This document shows positions 13,245 through 60,863 of a stretch of 64,000 nt of DNA, piece after piece. This DNA is from an uncultured Alphaproteobacteria bacterium (GTDB taxonomy: Bacteria; Pseudomonadota; Alphaproteobacteria; Rhizobiales; Aestuariivirgaceae). The position numbers were made by a program, and so were the translations under genes. Below the pieces are notes generated by a model. That model worked only from the letters and a program-made list of their open reading frames with translations. It was not told the origin of the DNA and did not search any database. The stretch's first letter is position 1. The number at the start of each line of letters is the position of its first letter. The DNA lies in NCBI GenBank assembly GCA_945957365.1, contig CAMFKI010000018.1:4300-68299 (forward strand), in the 5' to 3' direction.

Positions 13245-13266
13245 GATCTTCATCACAGCAGGTTTC

Positions 13267-15005: not shown

Positions 15006-15024
15006 TGCGGCCGTCGCGCGGGGT

Positions 15025-15168
15025 GGCCCTCATCCGGCCTGTCGGCCACCTCCTCCCATCCCTGCGGGACGGGAGAAGGACTCGTGGTGATGTGGGGCAT
15101 TCGCGCAACGAGTCCTTCTCCCGTTGCGAAGCAATGGGAGAAGGTGCCCGACAGGGCGGATGAGGGCC
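15025..15168. repeat. REP/RIME-like inverted repeat pair (about 61-bp arms)
   Basis: ggccctcatccggcctgtcggccacctcctccc...gggagaaggactcgt (15025-15085) and near-perfect reverse complement (15108-15168), between convergent genes. Confidence 0.8.
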
Positions 15169-15181
15169 TCGTTCCGCGCGC

Positions 15182-16129: not shown

Positions 16130-16160
16130 GGGTTACTCCCATCTGAGGCCGTGCCGGTCT

Positions 16161-17408
16161 TCAGGCCAGCATCAGCAATGGCTCTTCAATAAGGCTCCTG
16201 AAGGCCTGCAGCAACTCCGCACCCACCGCACCATCCACCGCCCGGTGATCGCAGGAGAGGGTGCAGGCGATCTGGCTGGCCAGCACCGGCTGGCCCTTCA
16301 CGGGAATGAACCGTTCGACGGCAGATCCGACCGCGAGGATCGTCGCCTGCGGCGGGTTGATGATGGCGGTGAACTGCTCGATCCCGTACATCCCGAGGTT
16401 GGAGATTGCCGTGGTGCCGCCCTGGTACTCGGACGGCACCAGCCTGCGGGCGCGGGCCTTGGCGGCGAGGTCCTTCATCTCGGCCGAGATGGCGGTGAGG
16501 GTCTTGGTCTCGACACTGCGGATCACGGGCGTGAACAGGCCGCCGTCGACGGCGACCGCCACGCCCACGTCGGAGGCGCGATGCCGCAGGATCGCGTCAC
16601 CGGCCCAGGTGACATTGGCGGCAGGCACCTTCTGCAGGGCAGCACCCATCGCCTTGATGATGAAGTCGTTGATCGACAGCTTCCACAGGGGCTTGCCGTC
16701 GGCACCCTTGGGAGCGGCGGCATTGAGGCGCTCGCGCGTCGCCAGCAGCGTGTCCAGCGTGCAGGTGACGGAAAGATAGAAATGCGGGACGGTCTGCTTC
16801 GACTCGGTCAAGCGCGCCGCGATGGTGCGGCGCATGCCGTCGACGGGGACAACGTCGAAGCTGCCGGGGGCATAGAGCTTCTGCACGCCGTCGCCGGGGA
16901 CGGCTGTGGCCGGCATGGCGGCGGGTACCGGTTTGCCTTCCGACGCGCTGCGCACATCCGCCGCGACGATGCGGCCGCGTGGGCCGCTGCCGGCGATGGC
17001 GGCGAGCGTCAAGCCCGCTTGGCGTGCGAGGCGGCGGGCGAGTGGGGTGGCGCGTGGGGCTTCGCCGTTGCTGACGGGAGCTGCGGCAACCGATGCAGAA
17101 GGGGCCTTTGGTGCCGACGCAGCCTGCGCAACCGGCGTGGCCATCGCAGCGGGCGCGCTGACGGCCTCGCCCTCGGCATAGATCCATGCGACGGCGGAGC
17201 CCACAGGTGCTGAGCTTCCCTCGTTCACCACGATGTTGCGCAGGATGCCGTCGGCAGGCGCATCGATCTCCATTGCCGCCTTGTCGGTCTCGATCTCGAA
17301 CAGCGCCGCACCCTTGGCGACCTTGTCGCCATCCTTGTGGTGCCATTTCGAGATCTTGCCCGTCGCCATGTCCATGTCGACGCGGGGGAGGATGACTTCG
17401 ACGGCCAT
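16161..17408 (-). CDS. Dihydrolipoamide acyltransferase E2 (AcoC/PdhC-like)
   Basis: Lipoyl domain ETDKA, PSBD ATPLARRLA..GSGPRGRI, VPHFYL, catalytic DHRAVDG; start 17408. Confidence 0.93.
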   Translation of the reverse strand: MAVEVILPRVDMDMATGKISKWHHKDGDKVAKGAALFEIETDKAAMEIDAPADGILRNIVVNEGSSAPVGSAVAWIYAEGEAVSAPAAMATPVAQAASAPKAPSASVAAAPVSNGEAPRATPLARRLARQAGLTLAAIAGSGPRGRIVAADVRSASEGKPVPAAMPATAVPGDGVQKLYAPGSFDVVPVDGMRRTIAARLTESKQTVPHFYLSVTCTLDTLLATRERLNAAAPKGADGKPLWKLSINDFIIKAMGAALQKVPAANVTWAGDAILRHRASDVGVAVAVDGGLFTPVIRSVETKTLTAISAEMKDLAAKARARRLVPSEYQGGTTAISNLGMYGIEQFTAIINPPQATILAVGSAVERFIPVKGQPVLASQIACTLSCDHRAVDGAVGAELLQAFRSLIEEPLLMLA

Positions 17409-17409
17409 C

Positions 17410-18395
<986 letters not shown>

Positions 18396-18399
<4 letters not shown>

Positions 18400-19412
18400 G
18401 CCGCCTCGGGTGAATAGACGTCGCGCGTGACTTCGGATGGATCGGGATCGGTGCCGAGCCGGGCGAATTCGATGCCCGCCGCGATCTCGGCCTCGGCGGA
18501 TTCGCGGATGGCGTTCACCTCGGCCTCGGTGGCGATGCCATGCGCCATCAGTTCGGACTCGAAATGCGGAATGGGGTCACGCGCCTTCCACTCCTCGATC
18601 TCCTCCTTGGTGCGGTAGCGGTTGCGGTCGGAGCGGGAATGGCCCCGCGTGCGGTAGGTCTTGCATTCGACGAGGCTCGGGCCATCGCCGCGCCTTGCCC
18701 GCGCGATTGCCTCGGCAATGGCCTCTTCGACGTCGGCGATGGAATTTCCGTCGGCGATGACGCCGGGCATGCCGTAGGCCGCCGCACGGTCGGCGATATT
18801 CGCCACCGCCATGGAGCGATCGGTGGAGACCGACATGCCGTACTTGTTGTTCTCGCAGACGAAGACCACCGGCAGCTTCCAGATCGCCGCCATGTTGAGA
18901 GCTTCGTGAAACGCGCCTTCATTCGACGCGCCGTCGCCGAAGAAGCACATGGCGACGTCGTCGCGCTTCTGCTTCTTGATGGCGAGTGCCGCCCCCACCG
19001 CGATGGGCAGCCCGCCGCCGACGATGCCGTTGGCGCCGAGATTGCCGGTGGCCACGTCGGCGATGTGCATGGAGCCGCCGCGGCCGCGGCAATAGCCTTC
19101 CTCCTTGCCGAAGAACTCGGCGAACATCAGCTTGGGGTCCGCCCCCTTGCCGATGCAGTGGCCATGGCCGCGATGCGTCGAGGTGATGTAGTCGGACGTG
19201 CGGAGCGCCATGGTGGAGCCGACGGCGGAACCCTCCTGGCCGATCGAGAGATGCATGGTGCCGTGGATGAGGCCGCGCATGTAGGCTTCCTCGGCCCCTT
19301 CCTCGAAGCGGCGGATCAGGTACATCCGGCGCAGCGCTTCCTTCAGCTGGTCGGCGGAATATCTCTGATAGAAGGGGCGGGCATTCGGCTTGATCTGGCC
19401 CACGGCGTTCAT
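18396..19412 (-). CDS. ThDP-dependent dehydrogenase E1 alpha subunit (AcoA/PdhA-like)
   Basis: [26 protein letters not shown]...ENN ThDP motif, TYRTRGHS; start 19412 overlaps upstream TGA. Confidence 0.93.
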
Positions 19413-20764
19413 TGCGAAAGTCCTTTCAGCATGTCGTCCTGGCGCTGGCGCAGCGCCACGATGCGGGCGGAGGCATCCACCGCGCAGTTGTCGTAGGTGA
19501 GGAGCGCGCCCTTGCGGACCGGCTTCGTGACCTTGCCGTTCTCGAGGAGGCCGCAGGGAATGGCGCGATCCCGCGCCGCATCGCCCGTGGTCATGATCCA
19601 GGCGCGGTAGGTGTACTCGCCGATGGCGTCGAGCCGTGCGCCGGGTGCGAGATCCTTCTTGGCCACCGCGCAGACCTCCGCCGAGGGCACGTCGAGCGGC
19701 ACCATGTCGGCAGCGTGGTAGAGCACGGCGCGGGCACAGGAGAGCGGCACCTCGAGGCTGGTCAGGTGATAGGGCCGGTAGAAGGTGTAGTAGGGGCCTG
19801 CACCGAGCTTCAGGTCGTGCATGCGCTCGCGCACGCGGGGATGCGCCATTTCGGCGATGACGAAGACGCCGGGGGCCACACCCTTGCCGATGGAGTAGTC
19901 CACGACACCCTTCCTCGACAGCACGCCGCCATCGGCGACGGGGCACAGCACCTTCTCGAGCTGGTCCAGCGTTGCGGCGGGGCCGTGCATGCCGGGGCGG
20001 TCGGGCATGAGGCCGGTGGCGTTGGCGATGGCCGCCATTTCCACCATGGTCTTGGAGCCGTCGACGAACTCGACCAGCATGCGCGGGTTCATGTTGCGCC
20101 GCTTCGCTTCGTCCATGTATTCCGCCGGTGTGGCATCGATGTTGAGCGGGTTGTTCTTGCCCTTGCCGGCGGCGACGATGGGGTAGCCGAGGCCGGTGAC
20201 GAAATTGACGAGCTCCATGGTGGAGGAAGGCTCGTCGCCCGCACCCAGCGTATAGACGACGCCCAGCCGCTGCGCCTCGCGCGCCAGATAGGCGCCGATG
20301 GTGACGTCGGCCTCGACATTCATCATCACGAGGTGCTTGCCGTGCTCCATGGCGGTGAGGCCGATCTCCGCACCGACCGCCGGCTTGCCCGTGGCATCGA
20401 CGACGACATCGATGTGGGCAGAGGTGCAGACGAGTTGCGCGTCCTGGGTGATGGCGGTCTTGCCGGACTCCAGCAATGTGGCGAAGGCAGAAGCCGTCGC
20501 CGCCTCGGCCACGTCGTTGTCGGGACGGCCGGAAATGCCGAGGGCCTTTCTGGCGGCAGGAAGGTTGATCTCCGCGATCGCGGCGACGGTGATGCCCGTC
20601 ATCTGCTGGCACTGGGTGACGATGTCGGTGCCCATCTCGCCCGAACCGATGAGGCCGACACGGATGGGTCGGCCCTCCTTCTCCATGCGGCGGCCCAAGT
20701 CCGCGGCAAGTCCGGTGGCCGCGCCGATGCGGCGCTGGCCGCGCGAAAGATCATCTGCCGGCAT
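19409..20764 (-). CDS. NAD(P)-dependent oxidoreductase with C-terminal SAF domain (homoserine-dehydrogenase-like, COG4091-type)
   Basis: GLIGSGEMG Rossmann motif, MMNVEAD, GAGDEP, FVDGSKT, YRPYHL, VAKKDLAPG SAF start; RBS caggag before 20764. Confidence 0.85.
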   Translation of the reverse strand: MPADDLSRGQRRIGAATGLAADLGRRMEKEGRPIRVGLIGSGEMGTDIVTQCQQMTGITVAAIAEINLPAARKALGISGRPDNDVAEAATASAFATLLESGKTAITQDAQLVCTSAHIDVVVDATGKPAVGAEIGLTAMEHGKHLVMMNVEADVTIGAYLAREAQRLGVVYTLGAGDEPSSTMELVNFVTGLGYPIVAAGKGKNNPLNIDATPAEYMDEAKRRNMNPRMLVEFVDGSKTMVEMAAIANATGLMPDRPGMHGPAATLDQLEKVLCPVADGGVLSRKGVVDYSIGKGVAPGVFVIAEMAHPRVRERMHDLKLGAGPYYTFYRPYHLTSLEVPLSCARAVLYHAADMVPLDVPSAEVCAVAKKDLAPGARLDAIGEYTYRAWIMTTGDAARDRAIPCGLLENGKVTKPVRKGALLTYDNCAVDASARIVALRQRQDDMLKGLSQ

Positions 20765-43613: not shown

Positions 43614-43634
43614 CCGATCCCCAGGGGGCATGCG

Positions 43635-44498
43635 ATGACCGACCTTTACCCACAGCGTTCCGCCGGCGTCGGCCTCAGGCTGCAGCATCTGGCGCAGGTC
43701 CTGCGCGACCGGCCCGCGGCGGCGTGGTTCGAAGTCCATCCGGAGAATTTCCTCGCCAACCCGCATGCCGCGGAGATGCTCGAGGCCATAGCCGCCCTCT
43801 ATCCCGTCTCGGTGCACAGCGTCGGCATTTCGGCCGGCAGCGTGGGTGGCATCGACCGGACCCATGTCGCGCGCATCAGGTCGCTCGTCGCGCGGCTCGA
43901 TCCGATCCTGTTGTCCGGCCATCTCGCCTGGTCGACCCATGACGGCGACTATCTCAACGACCTCTTGCCGCTGCCCTATCACGCGGAATCGCTCGGCGTG
44001 ATCTGCGACCACATCGCGGAAATCCAGGATGCGCTGGGCATGGTCTTCCATCTCGAGAACCCGTCGAACTATCTGGGCTTCGCGGACTCGACCATGACCG
44101 AGACAGCCTTCCTCGGCGAGATCGTCCGCCGCACCGGCTGCCGGCTGCTGTGCGATGTCTCGAACATTCACGTCAGCGCGCACAACCTCGGCTATGACGC
44201 GCGGCGCTACATCGACGAGCTGCCGGCGGACGCCATCGGCGAACTCCATCTCGGCGGCTTCGAGGTCGAGGCCGAGGCCGGCGGCGGCAGCGTGATCATC
44301 GACACCCATGCCCGCCCGATCGCGCCGGAAGCCTGGGATCTCTATGCCTATGCCATCGCCCGCTTCGGCCGCCGTCCGACCCTCATCGAGTGGGACAGCG
44401 CCATCCCGTCGCTCGACAGGCTGCTGGCGGAAGCCGGCAAGGCCGATGCCGTGGCTGCCGCCGCCGAAAGGGAGGTGCGCCATGCCGTCACTGTCTGA
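43635..44498 (+). CDS. bufB: DUF692 multinuclear non-heme iron oxidase (MNIO, BufB-like)
   Basis: GVGLR..H, WFEVHPENF, HSVG.S.G, SGHLAWS, LENPSNY, LLCDVSNIHV, ELHLGG, DTH, TLIEWD. Confidence 0.93.
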   Translation: MTDLYPQRSAGVGLRLQHLAQVLRDRPAAAWFEVHPENFLANPHAAEMLEAIAALYPVSVHSVGISAGSVGGIDRTHVARIRSLVARLDPILLSGHLAWSTHDGDYLNDLLPLPYHAESLGVICDHIAEIQDALGMVFHLENPSNYLGFADSTMTETAFLGEIVRRTGCRLLCDVSNIHVSAHNLGYDARRYIDELPADAIGELHLGGFEVEAEAGGGSVIIDTHARPIAPEAWDLYAYAIARFGRRPTLIEWDSAIPSLDRLLAEAGKADAVAAAAEREVRHAVTV

Positions 44499-45255
44499 GA
44501 CCCAGGCCGGCTTCCGCGCCGCGATCGCGGGGGGAACCGCACCCGCACTCCTGTCGGGCCTGCGCGGCTCGACCGATCCGGGTGAGCGGCTGGAAATCTA
44601 CCGCCGCCACTACCGCGAAAGCTTCCGCCGGCACCTGCGCGGCCGCTACCCCACGCTCGAATGGCTGCTCGGCACCGATCCCGTGGTCGCGCTGGCCGAC
44701 ATCACGCTGCAGCACTCACCGCCGCGCGCGCCGAGCCTCGCCGAATATGGCGCGGAGCTGATCGCCACGGTCGCGTCCACAGCCGGCCTCCCGCCTTACG
44801 CGGCCGACGTCGCCCGGCTGGACTGGCACCTCGGCTCTCTCGCGGTCGCGATTGCCCATGAGCCGATGCCGCTCGCGGCGCTGGCCAGCGTCGATCCGGA
44901 GCGGCTGGGCGATCTGCGCCTCGGGCTGCAGCTCGGTCTCGCCTATGTCACCTCGCCCTGGCCGGTGGATGAACTCGTTCACCTCCGCCAACAGGACAGT
45001 GCCCCGGCGGAACTGGTTTTCGTGCCAAGCGAAACCCATCTCGAGCTTCGCGGCGCCCGCGGGCAGTTCAGCCTGCAGCGGCTTGACACCGGCAGCTTCG
45101 CCTTCCGCTCCGCTCTCGCCCGTGGCGCGACGCTTGCTGATGCGGCGTCCGCGGGGCAGGCGGCCGCACCCGAATTCGACCTTTCAACCGCGCTTGCCAC
45201 CCTCTTTGCGGAGGGCCTCGTCATCAACCATTCCGGAGGGAACCAAAATGTCTGA
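44482..45255 (+). CDS. bufC: DUF2063 partner protein (BufC-like)
   Basis: Q..F.AAI, RLEIYRRHY, RYP.L..LLG, SLAEYG, DVARLDW; follows DUF692. Confidence 0.85.
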   Translation: MPSLSETQAGFRAAIAGGTAPALLSGLRGSTDPGERLEIYRRHYRESFRRHLRGRYPTLEWLLGTDPVVALADITLQHSPPRAPSLAEYGAELIATVASTAGLPPYAADVARLDWHLGSLAVAIAHEPMPLAALASVDPERLGDLRLGLQLGLAYVTSPWPVDELVHLRQQDSAPAELVFVPSETHLELRGARGQFSLQRLDTGSFAFRSALARGATLADAASAGQAAAPEFDLSTALATLFAEGLVINHSGGNQNV

Positions 45256-45766
45256 CACTCTCATGCTGCCACCCATCATTGCCGGCCTGCGGAGCCGTTT
45301 CGTCGCCATCAGGGCGCTGCTGGCCCTCCTGCCGCTGTCGCTGCTGCTGCTCGGCATGCGCGTCGCCATGGGCTTCGTGTTCTTCAACGCGGGGCTCCTC
45401 AAGCTGCACTCCTTCGACTTCGCCGTGCAGCTCTTCGCCAATGAATATCGCCTGCCGCTCATTCCGCCGGAGATCGCCGCGCGGCTTGCCATGACGGTCG
45501 AACTCGGCATGCCGCTGTTCCTCTTCGCCGGCCTCGCGACGCGGCTGGCGACCCTGCCGCTGCTCGGTATGACGCTGGTCATCGTCACGCTCGTCTATCC
45601 CGCCTCGTGGGTGGAGAGCCTGCTGTGGGGCAGCGTGCTGCTGATGATCCTCACCCGCGGCCCCGGCGTGATCTCGCTCGACCATCTGGTGGAACGCTGG
45701 TTCGAGAAGCGCTCACGGCCGATGGCGGCCGATGTGACCCCGCGCATGGTCAGTCGCGCGGCCTGA
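45248..45766 (+). CDS. bufD: DoxX-family membrane protein (BufD-like)
   Basis: RVAMGFVFFNAGLLKL, FANEYRLP, GLATRLATLPLL, RGPGVISLDH. Confidence 0.9.
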   Translation: MSDTLMLPPIIAGLRSRFVAIRALLALLPLSLLLLGMRVAMGFVFFNAGLLKLHSFDFAVQLFANEYRLPLIPPEIAARLAMTVELGMPLFLFAGLATRLATLPLLGMTLVIVTLVYPASWVESLLWGSVLLMILTRGPGVISLDHLVERWFEKRSRPMAADVTPRMVSRAA

Positions 45767-46032
45767 GGCCAGGCGGCACGCCATCGCCACCACGCGACGG
45801 TCGCCGCCCACATCGGGCGGCAGACTGGTTTTGCGGGCAGCATCCCTCCGACATATCCGTTCGACCTCGCGAGCTGTCTGACGAGGCCGTGAATGACCTG
45901 GGCGGCCGCCATGCAACCGAAGATGGCTGCAGCATCTACCGTCCTGACGTTGCGGCAGGGTGACGCAGGGTGCCATCTGCGCTTGCTTCCCGATTGCGTC
46001 AGATTGCGTTACGGTTGCATCGCCTGCAGGCA

Positions 46033-46503
46033 ATGAGTGCCTTCGGCGGTCGTGACGGGGGTATCGTGATAGATGAAACAATCCTGCGTGCGTTTGGCAC
46101 CATCTGGCCTCGTCATGTGTCGAGCCTCACCCAGTTTCTGATCGACTGCCGCAAGCATTTCAACAGTGACCTCGACCTGTTCCTGGTGCTCTGCATCATC
46201 GGCGACCGGACGTTTTCGACCGAGCACGCGCCCTCCGACATGGATTTCGACAACTGGAGCTCCGCCAGCCCCCGCGAGGTCCAGTCCATTGAAATCAATG
46301 CACAATCACTGTCGGACTATAGCGGAATCCCGCGTGAGACGGTGCGGCGCAAGCTGAACATCCTGGTCGAAAAGGGCTGGGTCGAGCGGGACCACCGCGG
46401 CTACATCACCGCAACGGCCAAGGCCAAGGAGGAACTGGCGCCGCTGACCAAGTCGAGCCTGGTCTATCTGACGCGCATGAAGTCGGTCCTCACCGACCTG
46501 TAA
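46033..46503 (+). CDS. Winged-helix HTH hypothetical regulator
   Basis: C-terminal INAQSLSDYSGIPRETVRRKLNILVEKGWVER HTH plus wing; start uncertain (46033 ATG or 46066 GTG). Confidence 0.7.
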   Translation: MSAFGGRDGGIVIDETILRAFGTIWPRHVSSLTQFLIDCRKHFNSDLDLFLVLCIIGDRTFSTEHAPSDMDFDNWSSASPREVQSIEINAQSLSDYSGIPRETVRRKLNILVEKGWVERDHRGYITATAKAKEELAPLTKSSLVYLTRMKSVLTDL

Positions 46504-46668: not shown

Positions 46669-47175
46669 ATGGCGGACCTCGTCGCAATCACCTACCCCAA
46701 CGAGGAGACGGCAGAAGCCGCACGCAAGAAGGTCCTCGAACTCCAGACGGAATACCTGATCTCACTCGAGGACGCCGTGGTCGTCGTCAAGGATGCCGAT
46801 GGCAAGATCAAGCTGCACCAGATGTTCAACACCACGGCCGCCGGCGCCGCGTCGGGCAGCTTCTGGGGCTTTCTCGTCGGTCTGCTGTTCATGATGCCGC
46901 TGGCCGGCGTCCTGCTCGGAGCCGCCGCCGGTGCGCTGGGCGGCAAGCTCAGCGACTATGGCATCAAGGACGACTTCATGAAGGGTGTCGCCGCCTCGAT
47001 CCAGCCGGGCAATGCGGCACTGTTCCTGCTCATCAAGAACATGACGGCGGACAAGGTGGTCGCCGGGCTGCAGCAATTCGGCGGCACGGTCCTGCGCACC
47101 TCGCTCGACGAGACCAAGGAGAAGGAACTCCGCGCCGCGCTCGATGACCATCTCAAGGCCGCGCCTGCCGCCTGA
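46669..47175 (+). CDS. DUF1269 family membrane protein
   Basis: LEDAVVV.KDADGKIKLHQ, GSFWGFLVGLLF, GALGGKLSDYGI.DDF, GTVLRTSL; RBS gaagga. Confidence 0.88.
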   Translation: MADLVAITYPNEETAEAARKKVLELQTEYLISLEDAVVVVKDADGKIKLHQMFNTTAAGAASGSFWGFLVGLLFMMPLAGVLLGAAAGALGGKLSDYGIKDDFMKGVAASIQPGNAALFLLIKNMTADKVVAGLQQFGGTVLRTSLDETKEKELRAALDDHLKAAPAA

Positions 47176-47314: not shown

Positions 47315-47617
47315 ATGCACTTCACCCCGCGTGAAATCGACAAGCTGCTCATCTACATGATGGCGCAGGTGGCCCAGCGCCGGAAGGACCAGGGCCTGAA
47401 GCTCAATCATCCCGAAACCGTCTCGCTCATCTCCGTCGCCGCCCTCGAAGGGGCGCGCGCCGGCAAGACGCTGGAGCAGGTGATGGAACTCGCCGGCAAG
47501 GTGATCACCCGCAACGACGTCATGGACGGCGTCGTCGAGATGATCCCCTACGTGCAGGTCGAGGCCGTGTTCACCGACGGCAGCCGCCTCATCACCGTCC
47601 ACGAACCCATCAAGTGA
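47315..47617 (+). CDS. ureA: Urease gamma subunit
   Basis: [37 protein letters not shown]. Confidence 0.97.
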
Positions 47618-47637
47618 TCCGGAAAGGGCACGCCATC

Positions 47638-48048
47638 ATGGCTCAAGACCAGACGAAGACCCCAGTGGGCGGGTTGGTTCTCGCCGCCGGCGACATCGAG
47701 ATCAATGCCGGCTATCCGGTCACCACCATCAAGGTGCGCAACACCGGCGACCGGCCCATCCAGGTCGGCTCGCATTTCCACTTCTTCGAGACCAATTCGC
47801 AGCTCGAGTTCGACCGCGGCCAGGCCTTCGGCAAGCGGCTCAACATCCCGGCCACCACCGCGATCCGCTTCGAGCCTGGTGACGAAAAGGAAGTCAGCCT
47901 CGTGCCCTACCAGGGCAAGCAGCGGGTGTACGGCTTCAACGGCCTGGTCAATGGCTGGGTGGGTGACGAGAGCCACGACGATTACCGCCCCCGCCTCGCC
48001 GAGGCCCTGAGCAAGGTCGCGCTCTATGGTTTCAAGAACAAGCCCTAA
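47638..48048 (+). CDS. ureB: Urease beta subunit
   Basis: [32 protein letters not shown]. Confidence 0.97.
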
Positions 48049-48083: not shown

Positions 48084-49802
48084 ATGGCCAAGATCTCAAG
48101 AAAGCAATACACCGATCTCTACGGCCCGACGACGGGCGACAAGATCCGTCTTGCCAACACCAATCTCTTCATCGAGATCGAGAAGGACCTCCGCGTCTAT
48201 GGCGAGGAGGCCGTCTATGGCGGCGGCAAGACGCTGCGCGACGGCATGGGCTTCGACAATGAACTGACCAGTGCCGCCGGCGCCCCCGACCTCGTCATCA
48301 CCAACGTCACCATCCTCGATGGCGTGCAGGGCGTCATCAAGGCCGACGTCGGCATCAAGAACGGCCTGATCTGCGGCATCGGCAAGGCCGGCAACCCGGC
48401 GATCATGCCGGGCGTCACCCGCGGCCTGGCGCTCGGACCGGGCACCGACGCCATTTCGGGCGAGCACCTCATCCTCACCGCCGGCGGCATCGACGCGCAT
48501 GTCCACTTCATCTCGCCGCAGCAGGCGGAGGCGGCGCTGAGCAATGGCGTGACCACGCTGTTCGGCGGCGGCATCGGCCCCTCCGACGGCACCAACGGAA
48601 CGACCATCACGCCCGGCACCTGGAACATCGAGATGATGCTCAGTTCCTTCGACTCGTGGCCGGTCAATGCCGGCGTACTGGGCAAGGGCAACGGTTCGGC
48701 CCCCGTGCCGCTGGTGGAGCAGATCCGCGCCGGCGCCATGGGCCTCAAGATCCACGAGGACTGGGGCACCACCCCGGCGGCGATCCGCAATGCGCTCACC
48801 GTCGCCGATCAGCAGGACGTTCAGGTCTGCATCCACACCGACACGCTGAACGAGTCGGGCTTCGTGGAGAACACCATCGCCGCCTTCGAGGGCCGCACCA
48901 TCCACACCTACCACACCGAAGGTGCGGGCGGCGGCCATGCCCCCGACATCATCCGCGTGGCGGGCCTGCCCAACGTCATCCCGAGCTCGACCAACCCGAC
49001 GCTGCCCTATGGCATCAACTCGCAGGCCGAGCTGTTCGACATGACGATGATCTGTCACAACCTCAGCCCCAAGATCCCGACCGACGTCGCCTTTGCCGAA
49101 AGCCGGGTGCGGCCTGAGACCATCGCGGCCGAAAACGTGCTCCACGACATGGGCGCCATTTCCATCATGTCGAGCGACAGCCAGGCGATGGGCCGCGTGG
49201 GCGAGAACTGGATGCGCACCATCCAGACCGCGCATCTGATGAAGGACCGCACCGGCGCCTACCAGGGCGACACGTCTGGCAACGACAACCAGCGCGTCCT
49301 GCGCTTCGTGGCGAAGGTCACGATCAACCCGGCCATCGCCCAGGGCGTGGGCCATGTCATCGGCTCGGTCGAAGTCGGCAAGATGGCGGACCTGGTGCTG
49401 TGGGAACCCGCCTTCTTCGGCGCCAAGCCGAAGATGGTGATCAAGGGCGGCTTCATCTCGTGGTCGCTGATGGGCGACCCCAATGCCTCGCTCCCCACCC
49501 CACAGCCGGTGATGTACCGCCCGATGTTCGGCGGCCTGCAGTCGGTGATCCCCAAGACCCGCGTCACCTTCACCTCGCATGCCGGCATTGAAGACGGCAT
49601 CGTCGAGCGTTATGGCCTCAAGTCGAAGGTCATGCCGGTCTACGGCACGCGGACCATCACCAAGACGTCGATGGTGCGCAACTCCGCCCTGCCGGACATC
49701 CAGGTCAATCCGGAGACCTTCGCGGTCACCGTCGACGGCAAGCATGCGACGGTCGAGCCGGCGACCAACGTTCCGCTCACCCAGCTGCACTTCTTCAGCT
49801 GA
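48084..49802 (+). CDS. ureC: Urease alpha subunit
   Basis: [52 protein letters not shown] flap, [12 protein letters not shown]. Confidence 0.98.
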
Positions 49803-49857
49803 AATCAACACGGTCCGGCGGGGGCCCCGGTCCCCGCCACCCGGATTGCGAGTTTGC

Positions 49858-50241
49858 ATGAAGCCGATCGACGTCATGTGGGTGTGTCTGGGCGGGGGCA
49901 TCGGTTCCCTGCTGCGCTGGCAGATCGGCCAGTTCATCGATGCGCGCTCGGCCTCGGCCTTCAAGTACAGCACGCTGTTCATCAACATCACAGGTGCCTT
50001 CGTGATCGCCTATCTCTCGGCGGCGCTGGCCATCGGCTGGCACCAGCGCTACGGCGACATGATGTCGTCGCTCGTCCTCACCGGCGTGCTGGGCGGCTAC
50101 ACCACTTTCAGCACCATGCAGCTCGATGCCGTGAAGATGGTGGAGAAGGGCCGCGCCGGGCTGGCGCTGTTCTACCTCGCCGTGTCGGTGGCGGGCGGGC
50201 TCGTCGCCGCGGCGGCGGGCGTTGCCGTGGCAGGGATCTGA
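49858..50241 (+). CDS. crcB: Fluoride channel Fluc/CrcB, subunit 1
   Basis: GGGIGSLLR, INITGAF, TGVLGGYTTFST signature; 127 aa. Confidence 0.88.
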   Translation: MKPIDVMWVCLGGGIGSLLRWQIGQFIDARSASAFKYSTLFINITGAFVIAYLSAALAIGWHQRYGDMMSSLVLTGVLGGYTTFSTMQLDAVKMVEKGRAGLALFYLAVSVAGGLVAAAAGVAVAGI

Positions 50242-50245
50242 CGCC

Positions 50246-50629
50246 ATGTGGGTGAAGGTGATCCTGGTGTTCATGGGCGGCGGACTGGGCGCCGTCACGC
50301 GCGAATTCTGCATGCTGCTGATGGGCCACGACAGTTCCAGCTTCCCGCTCGACATCTTCGTGGCCAACATCCTTGCCTCCTTCGTGCTCGGGCTGGTCTT
50401 CGGCTATCACCGCTCGCGCAATGTCTCGGACGAATTCTCGCTGCTCATCGCCACCGGCTTCACCGGCGGCATGTCGACCTTCTCGAGTTTCGTGTATGGA
50501 GCCTACTCGGAGATGGTCGATCCCGCCAAGCTCGCGGTCTCGATCCTCTACATTGTCTCCAGCCTGGTCATCGGCTTCGCCGCCGCCTGGGCCGGGGTCA
50601 AGTTGACGGCGCGGTCACGGCCGGCCTGA
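50246..50629 (+). CDS. crcB: Fluoride channel Fluc/CrcB, subunit 2
   Basis: GGGLGAVTR, VANILASF, TGFTGGMSTFSSF signature; 127 aa. Confidence 0.88.
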   Translation: MWVKVILVFMGGGLGAVTREFCMLLMGHDSSSFPLDIFVANILASFVLGLVFGYHRSRNVSDEFSLLIATGFTGGMSTFSSFVYGAYSEMVDPAKLAVSILYIVSSLVIGFAAAWAGVKLTARSRPA

Positions 50630-50654
50630 TCCGCCTACCCTTGGGAGTGTTTGC

Positions 50655-51239
50655 ATGATCATCATCGACAGGAAGCTCGGCAATGTCAGCGAACCGCTCT
50701 GGCGCGAGCGCTCGCAGCAGGGCGAGGTCGACCCGCTCATCCTCGAGCAGTGGGAAGCGCCCAAGAGCCGCCTGCGCAAGGCCAGCACGGGTGGCCTCGA
50801 GCTCGCCATCTCGCTGCCGCGCAGCGAGAACCTGCATGACGGCGACGTGCTCTATTATGACGAGGCCCGGAAGTACCTGGTGGTCGCCAAGGTGCCGCTC
50901 AAGGACGTGCTGGTGATCGAACTGGACGGCATCGACAAGCTGCCGCCGGTCGAGATCCTGCGCATCTGCTTCGAGCTGGGCCACGGCCTCGGCAACCAGC
51001 ACTGGCCTGCCGTGATCAAAGGCACCACCGTCTACGTGCCGCTGTCGGTCGACCAGAAGGTCATGGCCTCGGTGATGCGCACCCACGCCTTCGAGCACGT
51101 AAAGTCGCGCTTCGTTCCGGGCGAGGAGGTGGCGGCCAAGCTCACCGCCAAGGAAGTGCGCATCCTTTTCGCCGGTGCCGATGCCACGCCGCATCACCAC
51201 CACGGCGAGGTGCTTCAGCTCAACCTCGCGCGCGACTAG
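50655..51239 (+). CDS. ureE: Urease accessory protein UreE
   Basis: K.RLRK.S..G.EL, LHDGD, ELGHGLGNQHWP, C-terminal HHHH. Confidence 0.93.
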   Translation: MIIIDRKLGNVSEPLWRERSQQGEVDPLILEQWEAPKSRLRKASTGGLELAISLPRSENLHDGDVLYYDEARKYLVVAKVPLKDVLVIELDGIDKLPPVEILRICFELGHGLGNQHWPAVIKGTTVYVPLSVDQKVMASVMRTHAFEHVKSRFVPGEEVAAKLTAKEVRILFAGADATPHHHHGEVLQLNLARD

Positions 51240-52641: not shown

Positions 52642-53577
52642 ATGGGCCTGCACGAGCAGCTGCAGCGACTCGACGAGGCCAGGGAGCTTCGCGGCTTCCA
52701 GACCGAGCCCGCGCAGATGCGCGCCGCCGGCCCCGGCAAGATCGGCGAGCTGCGTCTCGGCTTCGCGCTGCGCGACGGGCGCTCGGTGCTGCACGATCTC
52801 TACCGGGTGGCGCCGCTGCTGGTGCAACGTGCCCTGTACTGGGACGAGGCCATGCCGGAACTGCCGATCTGCGCCATCATCTCGGTGGGCGGCGGCATCC
52901 TGCAGGGCGACCGCTATAAGATCGACATCGCGGTGGAGGAGGGCGCCTGCGCCCTGGTCAACACCCAGAGCGCCAACCGCGTGCACCAGATGGATGCGAA
53001 CTACGCCTCGCAGCACCAGACGGTGCGGCTGGAGAGCGGCGCCTACCTCGAGTACCTGCCCGACTTCACCATTCCCTATCGCAATTCGCGCTTCATCAAC
53101 CAGACCGACATCGTGCTCGCGCCGGACGCGACGCTGCTCTACGGCGAGATGATGATGACCGGCCGCAAGCACCACCATGCGGAGGAGCGCTTCGGCTTCG
53201 ATCTCCTGTCCATGGCGGTGTCGGTGCGCCGGCCCGACGGAAGGCGCATCTTCGCCGAGAAGCTGCTGATCGAGAAGGCGGACCCTGCCATCGACTTCGC
53301 CGCGGTGATGAAGGGCTATGATGCCTTCGCCAGCATACTGTGCCTGACGCCACCGGAAAACGCCGCGCGCATCAGGTCGCGCTGCGAGACCAATTTCCCG
53401 CCGGGCGGCGGCCGCGCCATTTCAGGTGTGAGCGGCCTGCCCAATGATGCCGGACTGATGCTGCGGGTGGTGGGCGTCGAGAGCTACGACGTGCGGGCCG
53501 AGGTGCGGCGCTTCTGGCAGATCGTGCGGGAAGAAGTGAAGGGCAGGAGCCTGCCACCGGAATTCATCTGGCGCTGA
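52642..53577 (+). CDS. ureD: Urease accessory protein UreD
   Basis: PLLVQRALY, GGGILQGD, TQSANRVH, LEYLPD.TIP. Confidence 0.93.
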   Translation: MGLHEQLQRLDEARELRGFQTEPAQMRAAGPGKIGELRLGFALRDGRSVLHDLYRVAPLLVQRALYWDEAMPELPICAIISVGGGILQGDRYKIDIAVEEGACALVNTQSANRVHQMDANYASQHQTVRLESGAYLEYLPDFTIPYRNSRFINQTDIVLAPDATLLYGEMMMTGRKHHHAEERFGFDLLSMAVSVRRPDGRRIFAEKLLIEKADPAIDFAAVMKGYDAFASILCLTPPENAARIRSRCETNFPPGGGRAISGVSGLPNDAGLMLRVVGVESYDVRAEVRRFWQIVREEVKGRSLPPEFIWR

Positions 53578-53592: not shown

Positions 53593-54594
53593 ATGTCCGA
53601 CAAGAACAATAATTTCGTGATCCAGTGCCTGCGCGGAACGAGCCAGGTGTTCTTCATGGAGAACGCCATCACCGGCATCCTGTTCTTCGCCGCCATGGCC
53701 TATGCTTCCTATGTGACCGGCAACTATGCCACGGTGATCGGAGCGGCGATCGGCGTCGTGGTGGCAACCGCGACGGCCCTTCTCCTCGAATGCGATGAGC
53801 CTTCGATCCAGCAGGGTCTCTATGGCTTCAACGGCATCCTGGTCGGCATCGCGCTGCCCACCTTCATCGCCGTCTCGCCGCAGCTCTGGGTGCTGGTGGT
53901 GATCGGCGCCGCGGTCAGCACCGTCGTCACCGCCGCGATGAGCGCCACGATCACCAGTTCATGGGGCATCCCCGGCTCGACGGGGCCCTTCGTGGTCACC
54001 GGCTGGCTTATGGTGGCGGCCGCCTATTGCTTCGGCGGCCTGCATGTCAACGACGCGCCGAAGCTTGCCACCGCCTTCGTCCAGTCCGGCATCGTCATTC
54101 CGGCGCCGGCCGACCTGGTGCAGATCTTCTTCCGCAACATTGGCCAGGTCTATCTACTCGGCAGCGCGGTGAGCGGGGCCCTCATCCTGCTCGGCATCTT
54201 CATCGCCTCGGTGCCGGCCGGCATCGCCACCGCCCTGGGCTCGATCGTCGCCATGATCGTGGCCATCGGCATGGGGGCGGATCCCACGGCCATCAACGAA
54301 GGCCTCTGGGGCTTCAGCCCGGTGCTGACGGCGCTGGCGGTCGGCGTCATCTTCCTCAAGCCGTCGCCCAGGGTTGCCGTCTATGCCCTGATCGCCACGG
54401 TGATGACGGTCTTCGTGCAGGGCGCGCTCGACGTCATCTACCAGCCGTTCGGGCTTCCGTCCTTCACCGCCCCCTATGTGCTGACCATGTTCCTCTTCGT
54501 GGCGCCCAAGAAGCTGCTGGCGCCGCATCCGCACAAGCCGGTGGCAAGCCACCTGGTCACCGACACCGCCCCCAAGAGCGCCGCGGCCAAGTGA
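53593..54594 (+). CDS. Urea transporter (UT/Yut/UreT family)
   Basis: LRGTSQVFF, GLYGFNG and GLWGFSP repeats, STGPFV and FTAPYV selectivity motifs. Confidence 0.92.
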   Translation: MSDKNNNFVIQCLRGTSQVFFMENAITGILFFAAMAYASYVTGNYATVIGAAIGVVVATATALLLECDEPSIQQGLYGFNGILVGIALPTFIAVSPQLWVLVVIGAAVSTVVTAAMSATITSSWGIPGSTGPFVVTGWLMVAAAYCFGGLHVNDAPKLATAFVQSGIVIPAPADLVQIFFRNIGQVYLLGSAVSGALILLGIFIASVPAGIATALGSIVAMIVAIGMGADPTAINEGLWGFSPVLTALAVGVIFLKPSPRVAVYALIATVMTVFVQGALDVIYQPFGLPSFTAPYVLTMFLFVAPKKLLAPHPHKPVASHLVTDTAPKSAAAK

Positions 54595-54740: not shown

Positions 54741-55985
54741 ATGGACCTCACGATCATCATCTTTCTCCTCGTCTATGTCGCCATGGGCGTCGGTCACCTG
54801 CCGGGCCTGCGCCTCGACCGGACGGGCACCGCCATCGTGGGCGCAATGATCCTGCTGGTGGCCGGCCGCATCACCCCCGCCGCCGCCTGGAACGCCATCG
54901 ACTATCGCTCGATCGGGCTGCTCTTCGGGCTCATGGTGGTCTCGGCGGCCTTCAGCGTGGCGGGCTTCTACGACTGGGTGGCGCAGCGGGTGGGCGCGAT
55001 GGCGGTCGGGCCGAAGGCGCTGCTGGCGGTGATGATCGCGGTGGCGGCGGGCATGGCCGCACTCCTCAACAAGGATGTCGTCGCGGTCGCCATGGCGCCG
55101 GTGTTCTGCTCGATCTGCCTCAACCGCAAGCTCAACCCGCTGCCCTACCTGCTGGCCTTCTGCTTTGCCGCGAACTTCGGTTCCTGCCTCACGCTCATCG
55201 GCAGCCCGCAGAGCATGATCGTGGCGGAAACGCTGCACCTGTCATTCGTCGGCTTCTCGCGCGCTGCGGCACTTCCCGCCCTCGTCGGCCTGCCGGTGAT
55301 CTGGATCGTCCTCGTCTGGTGCTACCGCGGCAACTGGCAGCTTGCGAGCCTTCCGGCGGCGGCGCAGGCGCGTGCCCCGGCAGCGCCGGCGGACGCCTTC
55401 AACCGCGGCGAAACCATCAAGGCGGGCCTCGTCACCTTCGCCGTCGTCGCCGCCTTCACCCTCACCGAGCTTCCGCACATGCTGATCGCGCTGGCCGGCG
55501 CCAGCGTGCTGCTGATCAGCCGGCGCTTCGCGTCGCGCAACATGCTGCACCACGTGGATGGCGACCTGCTGCTGCTGCTGATCGGCCTGTTCATCGTCAA
55601 TGCCGCCATGACCGCCACGGGGCTTCCCGCCCATCTCCTGGAATGGATGCGCGGCTACGGCGTCGACCTCCATGATCCACTGTCGATGCTGGCCATCATG
55701 GCGGTGATCAGCAACGTCATCGGCAATAATCCCGCCGTCATGCTGGTCAATCCCTTCCTCGGCGGGGCCAGCCAGCCCGAGGCGCTGGGTGCCGCCATTG
55801 CGCTCGGCACCGGGCTGTCATCGAGCGCGGTGATCTTCGGCAGCCTCGTCGGCATCATCGTGGCGGAGGAATGCGAGCGGCGCGGCATTCCCTTCAGCTT
55901 CCGCGAATTCGCGCGCTCCGGACTGCCGACCTCGATCGTCGCACTCGGCGTGGCGGCGGCCTGGATCTATCTGATCAGCCACTGA
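54741..55985 (+). CDS. ArsB/NhaD/CitT superfamily (YbiR-like) anion permease
   Basis: LRLDRTG.AIVGA, AIDY..IGLLFG.M, ALLNKD, ANFGS.LT.IGSPQ, SNVIGNNPA. Confidence 0.85.
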   Translation: MDLTIIIFLLVYVAMGVGHLPGLRLDRTGTAIVGAMILLVAGRITPAAAWNAIDYRSIGLLFGLMVVSAAFSVAGFYDWVAQRVGAMAVGPKALLAVMIAVAAGMAALLNKDVVAVAMAPVFCSICLNRKLNPLPYLLAFCFAANFGSCLTLIGSPQSMIVAETLHLSFVGFSRAAALPALVGLPVIWIVLVWCYRGNWQLASLPAAAQARAPAAPADAFNRGETIKAGLVTFAVVAAFTLTELPHMLIALAGASVLLISRRFASRNMLHHVDGDLLLLLIGLFIVNAAMTATGLPAHLLEWMRGYGVDLHDPLSMLAIMAVISNVIGNNPAVMLVNPFLGGASQPEALGAAIALGTGLSSSAVIFGSLVGIIVAEECERRGIPFSFREFARSGLPTSIVALGVAAAWIYLISH

Positions 55986-60350: not shown

Positions 60351-60863
60351 GTGGACCGCATCACCATCACCATCGAACCGGAACTGCTGGCGGGGCTCGA
60401 CGCCTTCGTCGGGGCCAAGGGCTATGCCGGCCGCTCGGAAGCGCTGCGCGACCTCCTGCGCGAGCGCCTGCAGGCGGAGGCCACCACCTCGGAAAGTGGA
60501 GGCGAATGCATCGCGGCGCTGACCTATGTCTACGACCATCACAAGCGCCAGCTGGCCAACCGCCTCACCGACCTCCACCACGACCACCACGACCTCACGA
60601 TCGCCACCATGCACGTCCACCTCGATCATGAATCCTGCCTCGAGGTCGCGGTGCTGCGCGGCGGCGTGGCCGAGGTGCGGCGCCTGTCGGAAGGCGTCAT
60701 CAGCCAGAGCGGCGTGCGCTATGGCCACACCCACGTGGTTCCCGTCAACATCGCGGTGCAGTCGCATCACCATCATGACGACGCCGGGACTGGCCACAGC
60801 CACCGACCGGGCACCCATGCCCACGAGCACATCCGCACCCTCGTGTGGAATCCGAAGGCGTGA
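60351..60863 (+). CDS. nikR: Nickel-responsive regulator NikR
   Basis: RITITI ribbon, RSEALRDL, YVYDHH, QHxH-like LHHDHH, HVHL..CLE; His-rich C-terminal extension. Confidence 0.93.
   Translation: MDRITITIEPELLAGLDAFVGAKGYAGRSEALRDLLRERLQAEATTSESGGECIAALTYVYDHHKRQLANRLTDLHHDHHDLTIATMHVHLDHESCLEVAVLRGGVAEVRRLSEGVISQSGVRYGHTHVVPVNIAVQSHHHHDDAGTGHSHRPGTHAHEHIRTLVWNPKA

What the first reader, a model, noticed from the sequence alone, without database searches (positions are those of the whole stretch)
49803..50654. Two Fluc fluoride-channel genes embedded between ureC and ureE
Seen: tandem crcB paralogs interrupt the ureABC-EFGD order and are co-oriented, with short gaps. Their signatures are asymmetric (GGYTTFSTMQLD versus GGMSTFSSFVYG), as expected for a heterodimer. 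No fluoride-riboswitch-like sequence is upstream. Established: fluoride inhibits urease at the dinickel site, and HF entry rises at low pH. Inference: a dedicated fluoride-export module protects an acid-resistance urease and is co-regulated with urease rather than by fluoride; alternatively these Flucs have diverged to another anion.
Basis: partly seen in the sequence, partly recalled or inferred. Interest (0 to 1): 0.65.

Follow-up and report, generated by a model that had tools for sequence, protein, structure and literature searches.

The report
Fluoride-channel gene pair inside urease operon
Two genes for the two halves of a fluoride channel sit in the middle of this bacterium's urease operon, and the same channel subtype lies beside urease genes in about 70 other species, which points to an undescribed, testable link between fluoride export and urea breakdown.

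Summary
Two co-oriented 127-aa CrcB/Fluc genes (49858-50241, 50246-50629) lie between ureC and ureE. The gaps are 55, 4 and 25 nt, and no promoter- or terminator-like site lies between them.

The two proteins have opposite positive-inside bias and asymmetric pore residues, as expected of an obligate antiparallel heterodimer.

The pair belongs to a distinct two-gene Fluc subfamily. In 80 species-representative genomes, 71 copies lie within 7 kb of urease or urea-channel genes. The layouts differ: embedded 36, convergent 23, upstream 8, divergent 2, next to UT 2. The carriers span at least 17 families of Alpha-, Beta- and Gammaproteobacteria (Yersinia, Laribacter) and the archaeon Methanomassiliicoccus.

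The linked urease is always the ureABCEFGD type, usually with a urea channel (the Brucella ure2 / Yersinia type). Most carriers also keep a canonical single crcB elsewhere. In Yersinia, Pseudomonas and Kaistia that copy has a fluoride riboswitch. No riboswitch was found next to any of the 11 pairs examined.

Best reading: a urease-co-expressed fluoride valve that protects the fluoride-sensitive dinickel enzyme when HF trapping is strongest. Transport itself is untested. Each pore carries a substitution that is inactivating in model Flucs yet strongly conserved here, so altered function remains possible. I found no publication describing the link.

The parts
47315..47617 (+). ureA (urease gamma subunit)
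   Evidence: ORF; 82-90% identical to UreA of the related cassettes
47614..48048 (+). ureB (urease beta subunit; exact start uncertain)
   Evidence: ORF; tblastn matches in the related loci
48084..49802 (+). ureC (urease alpha subunit), of the ure2/Yersinia type
   Evidence: PF00449 and PF01979. Its PF00449 score of 169 bits is the lower-scoring urease type that is always the one linked to the pair
49817..49838 (+). GC-rich 9-bp hairpin just after the ureC stop, with no U-tail. Possibly an mRNA-stabilising or attenuating stem that separates ureABC from crcB-ureEFGD-UT
   Evidence: Fold (z-score only -1.0 on its own). A hairpin at the same place in most embedded loci; the consensus 8-bp stem has 3 pairs with compensatory changes
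49858..50241 (+). crcB1, Fluc subunit with K+R bias -3. Pore residues: T39, N43, F84, M87 (at the second-Phe position), Q88, D90, Y106, S110
   Evidence: PF02537 83.3 bits; phmmer to Fluc-Bpe 5A40 E=1.7e-9; residue conservation in 77 clade members; topology bias
50246..50629 (+). crcB2, Fluc subunit with K+R bias +5. Pore residues: R19-E20, D36-I37 (at the G38-T39 positions), N41, F79, F82, G85 (at the E88 position), Y102, S106
   Evidence: PF02537 78 bits and NF002455 155.7 bits, above its cut-off; hhalign register against Bpe; AF2 model pLDDT 78.8, with the top 31 PDB matches all Fluc and TM-score up to 0.83
50655..51239 (+). ureE
   Evidence: PF02814 and PF05194
51247..51969 (+). ureF (start uncertain)
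   Evidence: PF01730
51991..52638 (+). ureG
   Evidence: ORF; 89-95% identical to UreG of the related cassettes
52642..53577 (+). ureD
   Evidence: PF01774
53593..54594 (+). UT/Yut-type urea channel
   Evidence: PF03253 274 bits; TIGR03441 334 bits, above its cut-off
54741..55985 (+). CitMHS/ArsB-like permease, conserved at the end of most embedded cassettes. Substrate unknown
   Evidence: PF03600 173 bits; a 49-73% identical homologue lies downstream of UT in 20 of the 36 embedded species-representative loci, or nearby on the other strand in 2 more

Best explanation
crcB1 and crcB2 encode the two fixed-orientation halves of an antiparallel heterodimeric Fluc fluoride channel. They are transcribed as part of the urease operon, at the head of its accessory and transport half (crcB1-crcB2-ureEFGD-UT-permease), not under a fluoride riboswitch. 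The cassette was acquired horizontally and belongs to the ureABCEFGD + urea-channel type (Brucella ure2 / Yersinia type). Proposed mechanism (inference): urease is needed when the outside is more acidic than the cytoplasm, and urease itself widens that pH difference. Membrane-permeant HF (pKa about 3.2) then enters and is trapped as F- at up to 10^deltapH times the outside level. F- binds the dinickel centre of urease (structures 4CEX and 6QDY, cited in PMC7433671). Making a fluoride channel in step with urease lets F- leave down its electrochemical gradient and keeps the enzyme, and other F--sensitive enzymes, working without any need to sense fluoride. Shown here: the gene identities, the heterodimer signatures, the absence of a riboswitch, and the conserved genomic linkage. 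Inferred: co-transcription, F- transport by this subfamily, and protection of urease as the selected benefit.
For: Identity: PF02537 at 83 and 78 bits; PDB Fluc matches; CrcB2 model TM-score 0.83 to Fluc-Ec2. Heterodimer: adjacent paralogues 4 nt apart; K+R bias -3 against +5, clade medians -2 (80% below 0) and +3 (100% above 0); three Phe plus one Met, as in the La and Sa heterodimers (PMC5636608). Operon: gaps of 55, 4 and 25 nt, and no promoter- or terminator-like site between ureC and ureE. Linkage: of 80 GTDB species loci of this subfamily, 36 are embedded between ureC and ureE, 23 convergent beyond UT, 8 upstream and co-oriented, 2 divergent, 2 next to UT and 9 have none within 7 kb. At least 14 layout changes occur on the tree, and the unlinked cases are nested inside linked clades. 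At least 17 families carry it, including the archaeon Methanomassiliicoccus. Control: 0 of 17 regions around other crcB copies in the same genomes hold ure genes. At equal UreC identity (84-86%) the pair is either embedded (60-63% identical) or upstream/divergent (45-52%), so channel and urease were joined or rearranged more than once. Specificity: in genomes with two ureases only the ure2/UT type is linked. Regulation contrast: RF01734 precedes the singleton crcB in Y. pestis, P. lundensis (two copies) and Kaistia, but none of 10 pairs nor this one. Acid context: the Yersinia island holds urease, UT, NicO, HdeA, a K+ channel and the pair. The pair is the only CrcB-family gene in Orrella and Deefgea, and Deefgea has no urease, which fits a working fluoride channel. 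Fluoride inhibition of urease at the Ni centre is established (PMC7433671).
Against: No transport or expression data exist for any member; no RNA runs hold this sequence. By the standards of the model channels each pore has a defect. Pore A (CrcB1 T39, N43, M87, D90, Y106, S110 plus CrcB2 F79) has Met where F83M is inactive in Fluc-Ec2. Pore B (CrcB2 I37, N41, F82, G85, Y102, S106 plus CrcB1 F84) has Ile where T39V/A/C/N are inactive in Fluc-Bpe. The genome already has a canonical homodimer-type crcB, so the need for a second channel is unexplained. The linkage is not universal: Morganella, a Klebsiella sp., Achromobacter and some Pseudomonas carry the pair away from urease, and the published Brucella ure2 operon has no crcB between ureC and ureE. 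A conserved hairpin after ureC could lower read-through. How many UT-type urease clusters lack the pair was not measured.
Confidence: 0.6

Rival explanations
1. General acid-stress fluoride valve. The pair exports F- but is selected to protect the whole cytoplasm (enolase, pyrophosphatase, ATPases) during acid exposure. It rides with urease only because both belong to the same acid-fitness island, and urease is not its specific client.
For: The Yersinia island also holds HdeA, a K+ channel and a nickel permease. The pair persists without urease in Deefgea, and away from urease in Morganella, a Klebsiella sp. and Achromobacter. HF trapping at low pH threatens many enzymes (established knowledge).
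Against: In 36 species the pair sits inside the urease operon itself, and in 8 it is the operon's first two genes. It is linked to urease in a gut methanogen-type archaeon with no other acid-resistance genes identified nearby. No other acid-resistance genes recur in the embedded cassettes.
Confidence: 0.2
2. Diverged function. This subfamily no longer conducts fluoride, or not only fluoride. It might move another small anion tied to urea chemistry (cyanate, carbamate/bicarbonate), or it might be a gated or rectifying variant.
For: Clade-specific replacements at pore positions are more than 90% conserved: CrcB1 M87, Q88, D90; CrcB2 E20, D36, I37, G85. The equivalent changes F83M and T39V abolish F- flux in model Flucs. 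Carriers usually keep a canonical Fluc. None of the 11 pairs examined has a fluoride riboswitch. Cyanate blocks Fluc-Bpe with high affinity at the T-E-Y triad that is remodelled here (PMC8315801).
Against: The TM2 Asn, the first Phe, the GG-x-(S/T)-T Na+-site motif, the TM1 Arg and the Y-x3-S track are invariant in both subunits. Met at Phe positions occurs in heterodimers known or surmised to work, and F80M is active. No Fluc has ever been assigned another substrate (PMC11139923). The pair is the only CrcB-family gene in Orrella and Deefgea.
Confidence: 0.13
3. Hitch-hiking. The pair was captured once by a mobile urease cassette and is carried along with no functional relation to urease.
For: The cassette is horizontally mobile. 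It is absent from 18 same-genus genomes, lies next to a RepA gene on a 430-kb replicon in Roseomonas, and is shared between Alpha- and Betaproteobacteria.
Against: Linkage survives at least 14 changes of layout and orientation, including two separate origins of the embedded layout. Divergent pair lineages sit beside near-identical ureases. The protein sequences are under strong purifying selection. The linkage crosses the bacteria-archaea boundary (L094, L095).
Confidence: 0.05

Closest known systems
Heterodimeric Fluc (CrcB) fluoride channels, e.g. Lactobacillus acidophilus La1/La2 and S. aureus Sa1/Sa2 (PMC5636608; PMC11139923)
   Same: Two adjacent paralogous genes of about 125 aa, fixed opposite topologies, three of the four Phe-box residues kept with Met or Leu at the fourth, and the same four-helix fold with a broken TM3.
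   Different: Heterodimers are described as mainly Gram-positive and rare in Gram-negative phyla; this subfamily is proteobacterial and archaeal. One subunit also replaces the conserved TM2 Gly-Thr with Asp-Ile and the TM3b Glu with Gly. The pair is linked to urease, and no fluoride riboswitch was found next to any of the 11 pairs examined.
Homodimeric Fluc-Ec2 / Fluc-Bpe (PDB 5A43, 5A40) and the genome's own singleton crcB (G000 contig 38)
   Same: Same family and fold; TM1 Arg, TM2 Asn, the Na+-site motif and the Tyr/Ser polar track are conserved.
   Different: Those are dual-topology, double-barrelled homodimers with K+R bias near 0. They are housekeeping or riboswitch-controlled and are not near urease (0 of 17 regions).
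Eukaryotic FEX, a single-barrelled two-domain fluoride channel (PMC5417652; PDB 9OP1)
   Same: The two halves are asymmetric. One half carries 'F..M' in TM3b, as CrcB1 does. The expectation is one working pore and one degraded pore.
   Different: In FEX all degraded positions fall in one pore. Here the non-canonical residues are split between the two pores and are conserved rather than drifting, so the working pore cannot be assigned from sequence.
Brucella ure2 (ureABCEFGDT-nikKMLQO; PMC2868824) and the Yersinia ureABCEFGD-yut urease loci
   Same: Same urease gene order, with a UT-family urea channel and nearby nickel uptake or NikR; used for acid resistance in those organisms.
   Different: The published Brucella ure2 has no crcB genes between ureC and ureE. 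In Yersinia the pair lies about 4 kb beyond yut on the other strand rather than inside the operon.
Laribacter hongkongensis urease cassette with LHK_01038/LHK_01039 (PMC3125207, PMC3936950)
   Same: A Laribacter MAG (L073) has the same embedded ureC-crcB-crcB-ureE layout, which arose separately from the alphaproteobacterial clade of embedded cassettes. In the published HLHK9 genome the two crcB genes carry adjacent locus tags; their position inside the cassette is inferred from the MAG, not read from the record.
   Different: The literature annotates the two genes only as 'camphor resistance' genes and describes the urease cassette as eight ORFs without them. No functional link was drawn.

Membership tests
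Fluc / CrcB (PF02537) | Match to the family profile above the curated threshold | tested here: met
   CrcB1 83.3 bits and CrcB2 78 bits against a cut-off of 32.9; CrcB2 also passes NF002455 (155.7 against 153)
Fluc / CrcB (PF02537) | Four-TM fold with a broken TM3 | tested here: met
   AF2 model of CrcB2 (pLDDT 78.8) has helices 2-26, 35-56, 62-76/79-89 and 93-122; the top 31 PDB matches are all Fluc, with TM-score up to 0.83 and rmsd 2.1 A. CrcB1 was not modelled but aligns to 5A40 over residues 3-124, E=1.7e-9
Fluc / CrcB (PF02537) | Invariant TM1 Arg, TM2 Asn and the GG-x-(S/T)-T Na+-site motif | tested here: met
   CrcB1 R20, N43, G79-G80-Y-T-T; CrcB2 R19, N41, G74-G75-M-S-T; 100% conserved in 77 and 81 clade members
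Fluc / CrcB (PF02537) | Phe box: two Phe in TM3b of each subunit (F80 and F83 in Ec2) | tested here: inconclusive
   CrcB1 has F84 and M87; CrcB2 has F79 and F82. Met is kept in 73 of 77 CrcB1 sequences. F83M is inactive in Ec2, but Met occurs in natural heterodimers
Fluc / CrcB (PF02537) | Thr-Glu-Tyr triad at the pore exit (T39, E88, Y104 in Bpe) | tested here: inconclusive
   CrcB1 has T39, D90 and Y106, which meets it (E88D is active in Bpe). CrcB2 has I37, G85 and Y102, which does not (T39V is inactive in Bpe)
Fluc / CrcB (PF02537) | Selective F- conduction and fluoride resistance | not testable with these tools
   Needs complementation of E. coli delta-crcB and liposome or bilayer flux assays
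Heterodimeric Fluc | Two adjacent paralogous genes | tested here: met
   4-nt gap in the window; a CrcB1-like gene lies immediately upstream of the CrcB2-like gene in all 76 species-representative loci that are not cut off at the pair
Heterodimeric Fluc | Opposite positive-inside (K+R) bias of the partners | tested here: met
   Window -3 against +5; clade medians -2 and +3; the singleton crcB of the same genome scores 0 by hand count (sequence)
Heterodimeric Fluc | Both genes required for activity | not testable with these tools
   Needs single-gene against double-gene expression
Fluoride-riboswitch regulon (RF01734) | crcB-motif aptamer upstream of the gene | tested here: not met
   No hit in the window. 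The best genome-wide hit is 21.9 bits against 34, elsewhere. None next to 10 other pairs, but present upstream of singleton crcB genes in 4 control regions
ure2 / Yersinia-type urease cluster | Gene order ureABC-EFGD followed by a UT-family urea channel | tested here: met
   The order is interrupted only by the crcB pair
ure2 / Yersinia-type urease cluster | Acid-activated urease or urea transport | not testable with these tools
   Known for Yersinia and for Brucella UreT (PMC2868824); needs enzyme and transport assays here

The most novel reading that the evidence does not exclude
The urease-linked pair is a re-tooled member of the Fluc family rather than an ordinary fluoride channel. The conserved Met-Gln-x-Asp of CrcB1, and the Asp36-Ile37 / Gly85 swap of CrcB2 (a carboxylate moved from TM3b to TM2), would create either a pore for another small anion of urea chemistry (cyanate, carbamate/bicarbonate) or a pH-gated or rectifying fluoride pore that opens only under urease-relevant conditions. 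Either would be the first Fluc with a non-canonical function.
Probability: 0.15. Interest if true: 0.85.

Novelty: new variant of a known kind. Interest (0 to 1): 0.68.

Why it matters
Fluoride is a classical urease inhibitor, and Fluc channels are the main bacterial defence against fluoride. I found no description of a genetic link between the two.

A dedicated, riboswitch-independent, heterodimeric Fluc subfamily that travels with acid-type ureases in at least 17 families would do three things. The carriers include the enteric pathogens Yersinia and Laribacter, and also Morganella, where the pair lies away from urease.

1. It would show that environmental fluoride is a real selective pressure on ureolysis at low pH.
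2. It would explain two 'camphor resistance' genes that were ignored in published urease cassettes.
3. It would give Fluc biophysics a natural heterodimer whose two pores each carry a 'lethal' yet conserved substitution. That is a direct test of which residues are truly required for F- permeation.

It also suggests that fluoride sensitivity of urease-dependent acid survival could depend on this pair.

Tried and rejected
- RNA evidence for co-transcription: the look-up of sequencing runs found only DNA metagenomes (fish gut, freshwater, rhizosphere) and no RNA run.
- Reverse survey, asking how many UT-type urease clusters carry the pair: a 401-genome even sample of the class held only the window's own full UT gene, so it was uninformative.
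- Terminator idea: the hairpin after ureC has no U-tail in the window and a z-score of only -1.0. It is conserved across species, so I kept it as a side note, not as evidence for separate transcription.
- Assigning the active pore from sequence: I mapped residues onto the FEX, Bpe and Ec2 data. Each pore has one disqualifying residue, so I rejected a confident call. Slightly weaker conservation of the CrcB2 second Phe (F 73, Y 5, L 3) hints that the pore lined by CrcB1 is the working one.
- Brucella context: the L. hongkongensis paper reports a 68% identical Brucella CrcB. My searches did not return Brucella among the top hits, so whether a pair lies next to ure2 is unresolved.
- Macdonald & Stockbridge 2017 (PMC5612848) could not be read.
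- I did not check whether Orrella and Deefgea have a CLC-F exporter.
- Chance or hitch-hiking was rejected as the main explanation because of 14 layout changes with retained linkage.
- The RF02514 '5' ureB sRNA' hit was judged a coding-sequence echo, not a finding.

Full report
**Observation**

The window carries a complete urease cluster on the + strand:
- ureA 47315-47617, ureB 47614-48048, ureC 48084-49802
- two 127-aa CrcB/Fluc genes, crcB1 49858-50241 and crcB2 50246-50629
- ureE 50655-51239, ureF, ureG, ureD
- a UT-family urea channel 53593-54594 and a CitMHS-type permease 54741-55985

Both CrcB proteins pass Pfam PF02537 (83.3 and 78 bits; cut-off 32.9). CrcB2 also passes the NCBIfam equivalog NF002455. 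The gaps are 55, 4 and 25 nt. The consensus scan finds no promoter-like or terminator-like site between ureC and ureE.

No fluoride riboswitch reaches threshold in the window or anywhere in the genome.

**What the two proteins are**

Both align to the solved Fluc channels. An AlphaFold model of CrcB2, built on 23 homologues, has the four-helix fold with the broken third helix. Its first 31 PDB matches are all Fluc, with TM-score up to 0.83.

A third crcB on contig 38 is canonical. It carries GGFTTFSAFS, has K+R bias 0, and lies between a corA-like and an rluC-like gene.

The operon pair shows the marks of an obligate antiparallel heterodimer:
- The genes are adjacent.
- The positive-inside bias is opposite: -3 for CrcB1 and +5 for CrcB2. 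Across the subfamily the medians are -2 (80% negative) and +3 (100% positive).
- Three of the four Phe-box residues are kept, with Met at the fourth. This is the pattern reported for the Lactobacillus and Staphylococcus heterodimers (PMC5636608).

**Pore residues**

I used the published pore composition. One pore is T39, N43, F85, E88, Y104 and S108 of one subunit plus F82 of the partner, in Bpe numbering (PMC5417652, PMC8315801). The register was confirmed by hhalign.

| Pore | Lined mainly by | Residues | Non-canonical position |
|---|---|---|---|
| A | CrcB1 | T39, N43, M87, D90, Y106, S110, plus CrcB2 F79 | Met where F83M kills Fluc-Ec2 |
| B | CrcB2 | I37, N41, F82, G85, Y102, S106, plus CrcB1 F84 | Ile where T39V/A/C/N kill Fluc-Bpe |

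In CrcB2 an invariant Asp36 also replaces the neighbouring Gly.

These are not drifted positions. Met is kept in 73 of 77 CrcB1 sequences, Gln88 in 72, Asp90 in 75. Ile37 is kept in 77 of 81 CrcB2 sequences, Asp36 in 73, Gly85 in 74. The CrcB2 second Phe is slightly less constrained (F 73, Y 5, L 3).

So the working pore cannot be assigned with confidence. The pore lined by CrcB1 is mildly favoured. Altered function cannot be excluded.

**Comparative evidence, the main result**

A scan of one genome per GTDB species with the CrcB2 subfamily alignment returned 80 loci. I located urease, UT and CrcB homologues in each by tblastn. In every locus not cut off at the pair (76 of 80), a CrcB1-like gene lies immediately upstream of the CrcB2-like gene.

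| Layout | Species loci |
|---|---|
| Embedded ureC-crcB1-crcB2-ureE | 36 |
| Convergent, 0.4-4 kb beyond UT | 23 |
| Upstream, co-oriented with ureA | 8 |
| Divergent from ureA | 2 |
| Next to a UT gene only | 2 |
| No ure gene within 7 kb (one is a 3.6-kb contig) | 9 |

The embedded loci are many Hyphomicrobiales, Acetobacteraceae, Alcaligenaceae and Neisseriales, including Laribacter. The convergent loci are Yersinia species, the Pseudomonas fragi group and Variovorax. The upstream loci are Sphingomonas, Devosia, a Rhizobiaceae MAG and the archaeon Methanomassiliicoccus.

On a concatenated CrcB1+CrcB2 tree the embedded layout appears in two separate clades. At least 14 layout changes are needed, and the unlinked cases nest inside linked clades.

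Ureases that are 84-86% identical to the window's carry either an embedded pair (60-63% identical) or an upstream or divergent pair from the other main branch (45-52% identical). Channel and urease have therefore been joined or rearranged repeatedly while staying together.

As a control, none of 17 regions around the other crcB copies of 14 carrier genomes holds a urease gene.

**Which urease, and which regulation**

Where a genome has two ureases, only the type with the lower PF00449 score (164-177 bits) is linked. That type has the order ureABCEFGD, usually with UT. It is the Brucella ure2 / Yersinia type, which is known for acid-activated urea uptake or urease activity (PMC2868824).

In Yersinia the island also contains a NicO nickel permease, the periplasmic acid chaperone HdeA and a K+ channel.

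Fourteen of 16 carriers tested keep a canonical singleton crcB elsewhere. In Y. pestis, P. lundensis (two copies) and Kaistia that copy is preceded by a fluoride riboswitch. No riboswitch lies near any of 10 pairs examined.

Orrella and Deefgea have only the pair, and Deefgea has no urease at all. That fits a channel that still handles fluoride.

**Origin in this genome**

None of 18 same-genus and 12 same-order genomes has the CrcB2 type. Most same-genus genomes that have a urease carry the other type (188-198 bits). This genome has only the ure2 type.

The sequence is found in fish-gut metagenomes. In Roseomonas marmotae the cassette lies on a 430-kb replicon next to a RepA gene. The cassette is therefore a horizontally acquired accessory island.

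**Mechanism**

Fluoride binds the dinickel centre of urease; the structures are cited in PMC7433671. The following steps rest on established weak-acid chemistry and my own inference.
- HF crosses membranes and is trapped as F- in proportion to 10^deltapH.
- A cytoplasmic urease working against an acid exterior, and itself alkalinising the cytoplasm, therefore concentrates its own inhibitor.
- A channel made in step with urease would let F- leave down its gradient.

The pair sits after a conserved GC hairpin that follows ureC (window 49817-49838). This places it at the head of the accessory and transport half of the operon, which is probably expressed at a lower level than ureABC.

Confidence by step:

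| Claim | Confidence |
|---|---|
| Heterodimeric Fluc pair | about 0.9 |
| Co-transcription with ure genes | about 0.85 |
| Fluoride transport | about 0.7 |
| Urease protection as the selected benefit | about 0.5 |

Rivals are a general acid-stress fluoride valve, a changed substrate or gating, and pure hitch-hiking.

**Novelty**

Full-text searches found no paper that links Fluc/crcB to urease clusters. The Laribacter hongkongensis genome papers list the two genes only as camphor-resistance genes, and describe the urease cassette as eight ORFs without them. A review states that heterodimeric Flucs are rare in Gram-negative phyla (PMC11139923).

Earlier notes of this scan reported the same pairing in other genomes. 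I re-derived the linkage independently here.

I class this as a new variant of a known kind: a known channel family and a known enzyme, joined by a previously undescribed, conserved and testable coupling.

Noticed in passing
window 48251-48531 (- strand); also L087 8614-8910: Rfam RF02514 '5' ureB small RNA' (an H. pylori antisense sRNA) matches antisense to ureC at 53.3 bits here and 67.6 bits in a Sphingomonas locus. This is probably an echo of conserved urease-alpha coding sequence rather than a real sRNA.
   Followed up: partly
window 49817-49838; alignment A2: A GC-rich hairpin directly after the ureC stop recurs at the same place in most embedded cassettes. The consensus stem is 8 bp, and 3 pairs show compensatory changes. 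Orrella has a true terminator-like version with a T-run. It may set the ureABC to accessory-gene expression ratio.
   Followed up: partly
window 54741-55985; L009-L045: A CitMHS/ArsB-like permease (weak MamN-like match, 93 bits, far below its cut-off) ends most embedded cassettes. Its substrate is unknown. In the three relatives whose called genes were read (Roseomonas, two Ancylobacter) an Amt ammonium channel sits between UT and this permease; it is absent here.
   Followed up: no
L114 (Yersinia) 10001-20381: The Yersinia urease island reads ureABCEFGD-UT-NicO, then HdeA, a TrkA_N/Ion_trans_2 K+ channel and the crcB pair. A small Ion_trans_2 gene also follows the Ancylobacter cassette (L011). 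A K+ channel may be another recurrent partner.
   Followed up: no
G000 genome against 18 same-genus genomes: This genome is the only one of its genus (among species representatives) with the ure2-type urease plus Fluc pair, and it lacks the urease type found in most of the genus. At 4.3 Mb it is also larger than all but one of the 18 relatives (2.8-4.8 Mb).
   Followed up: partly
L095 / L106 (Methanomassiliicoccus, one contig): This archaeon has two heterodimer-type crcB pairs 9 kb apart. One is directly upstream of ureABCEFGD. The second carries Tyr at the second-Phe position of its CrcB1-like subunit.
   Followed up: no
window 43629-45763: An MbnB/DUF692 - DUF2063 - DoxX gene set lies just upstream of the urease region. 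An earlier scan note calls it a bufferin-type copper-binding RiPP operon. It seems unrelated to the urease cassette.
   Followed up: no
window 46669-47175 and 45970-46503: A DUF1269 membrane protein gene lies directly upstream of ureA on the same strand, and a small HTH regulator gene lies before it. Neither is conserved next to the cassette in other species.
   Followed up: no
window 60684-60780 (- strand; G000:C18:64983-65079): A weak fluoride-riboswitch-like match (17.4 bits against a gathering score of 34) lies about 10 kb downstream of the operon. It is most likely chance.
   Followed up: no
L093 and L086: In a Hyphomicrobiales MAG the pair directly follows a UT gene with no urease within about 5 kb, and in a Plesiomonas MAG the pair is followed directly by UT. 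The association may be with the urea channel as much as with the enzyme.
   Followed up: no
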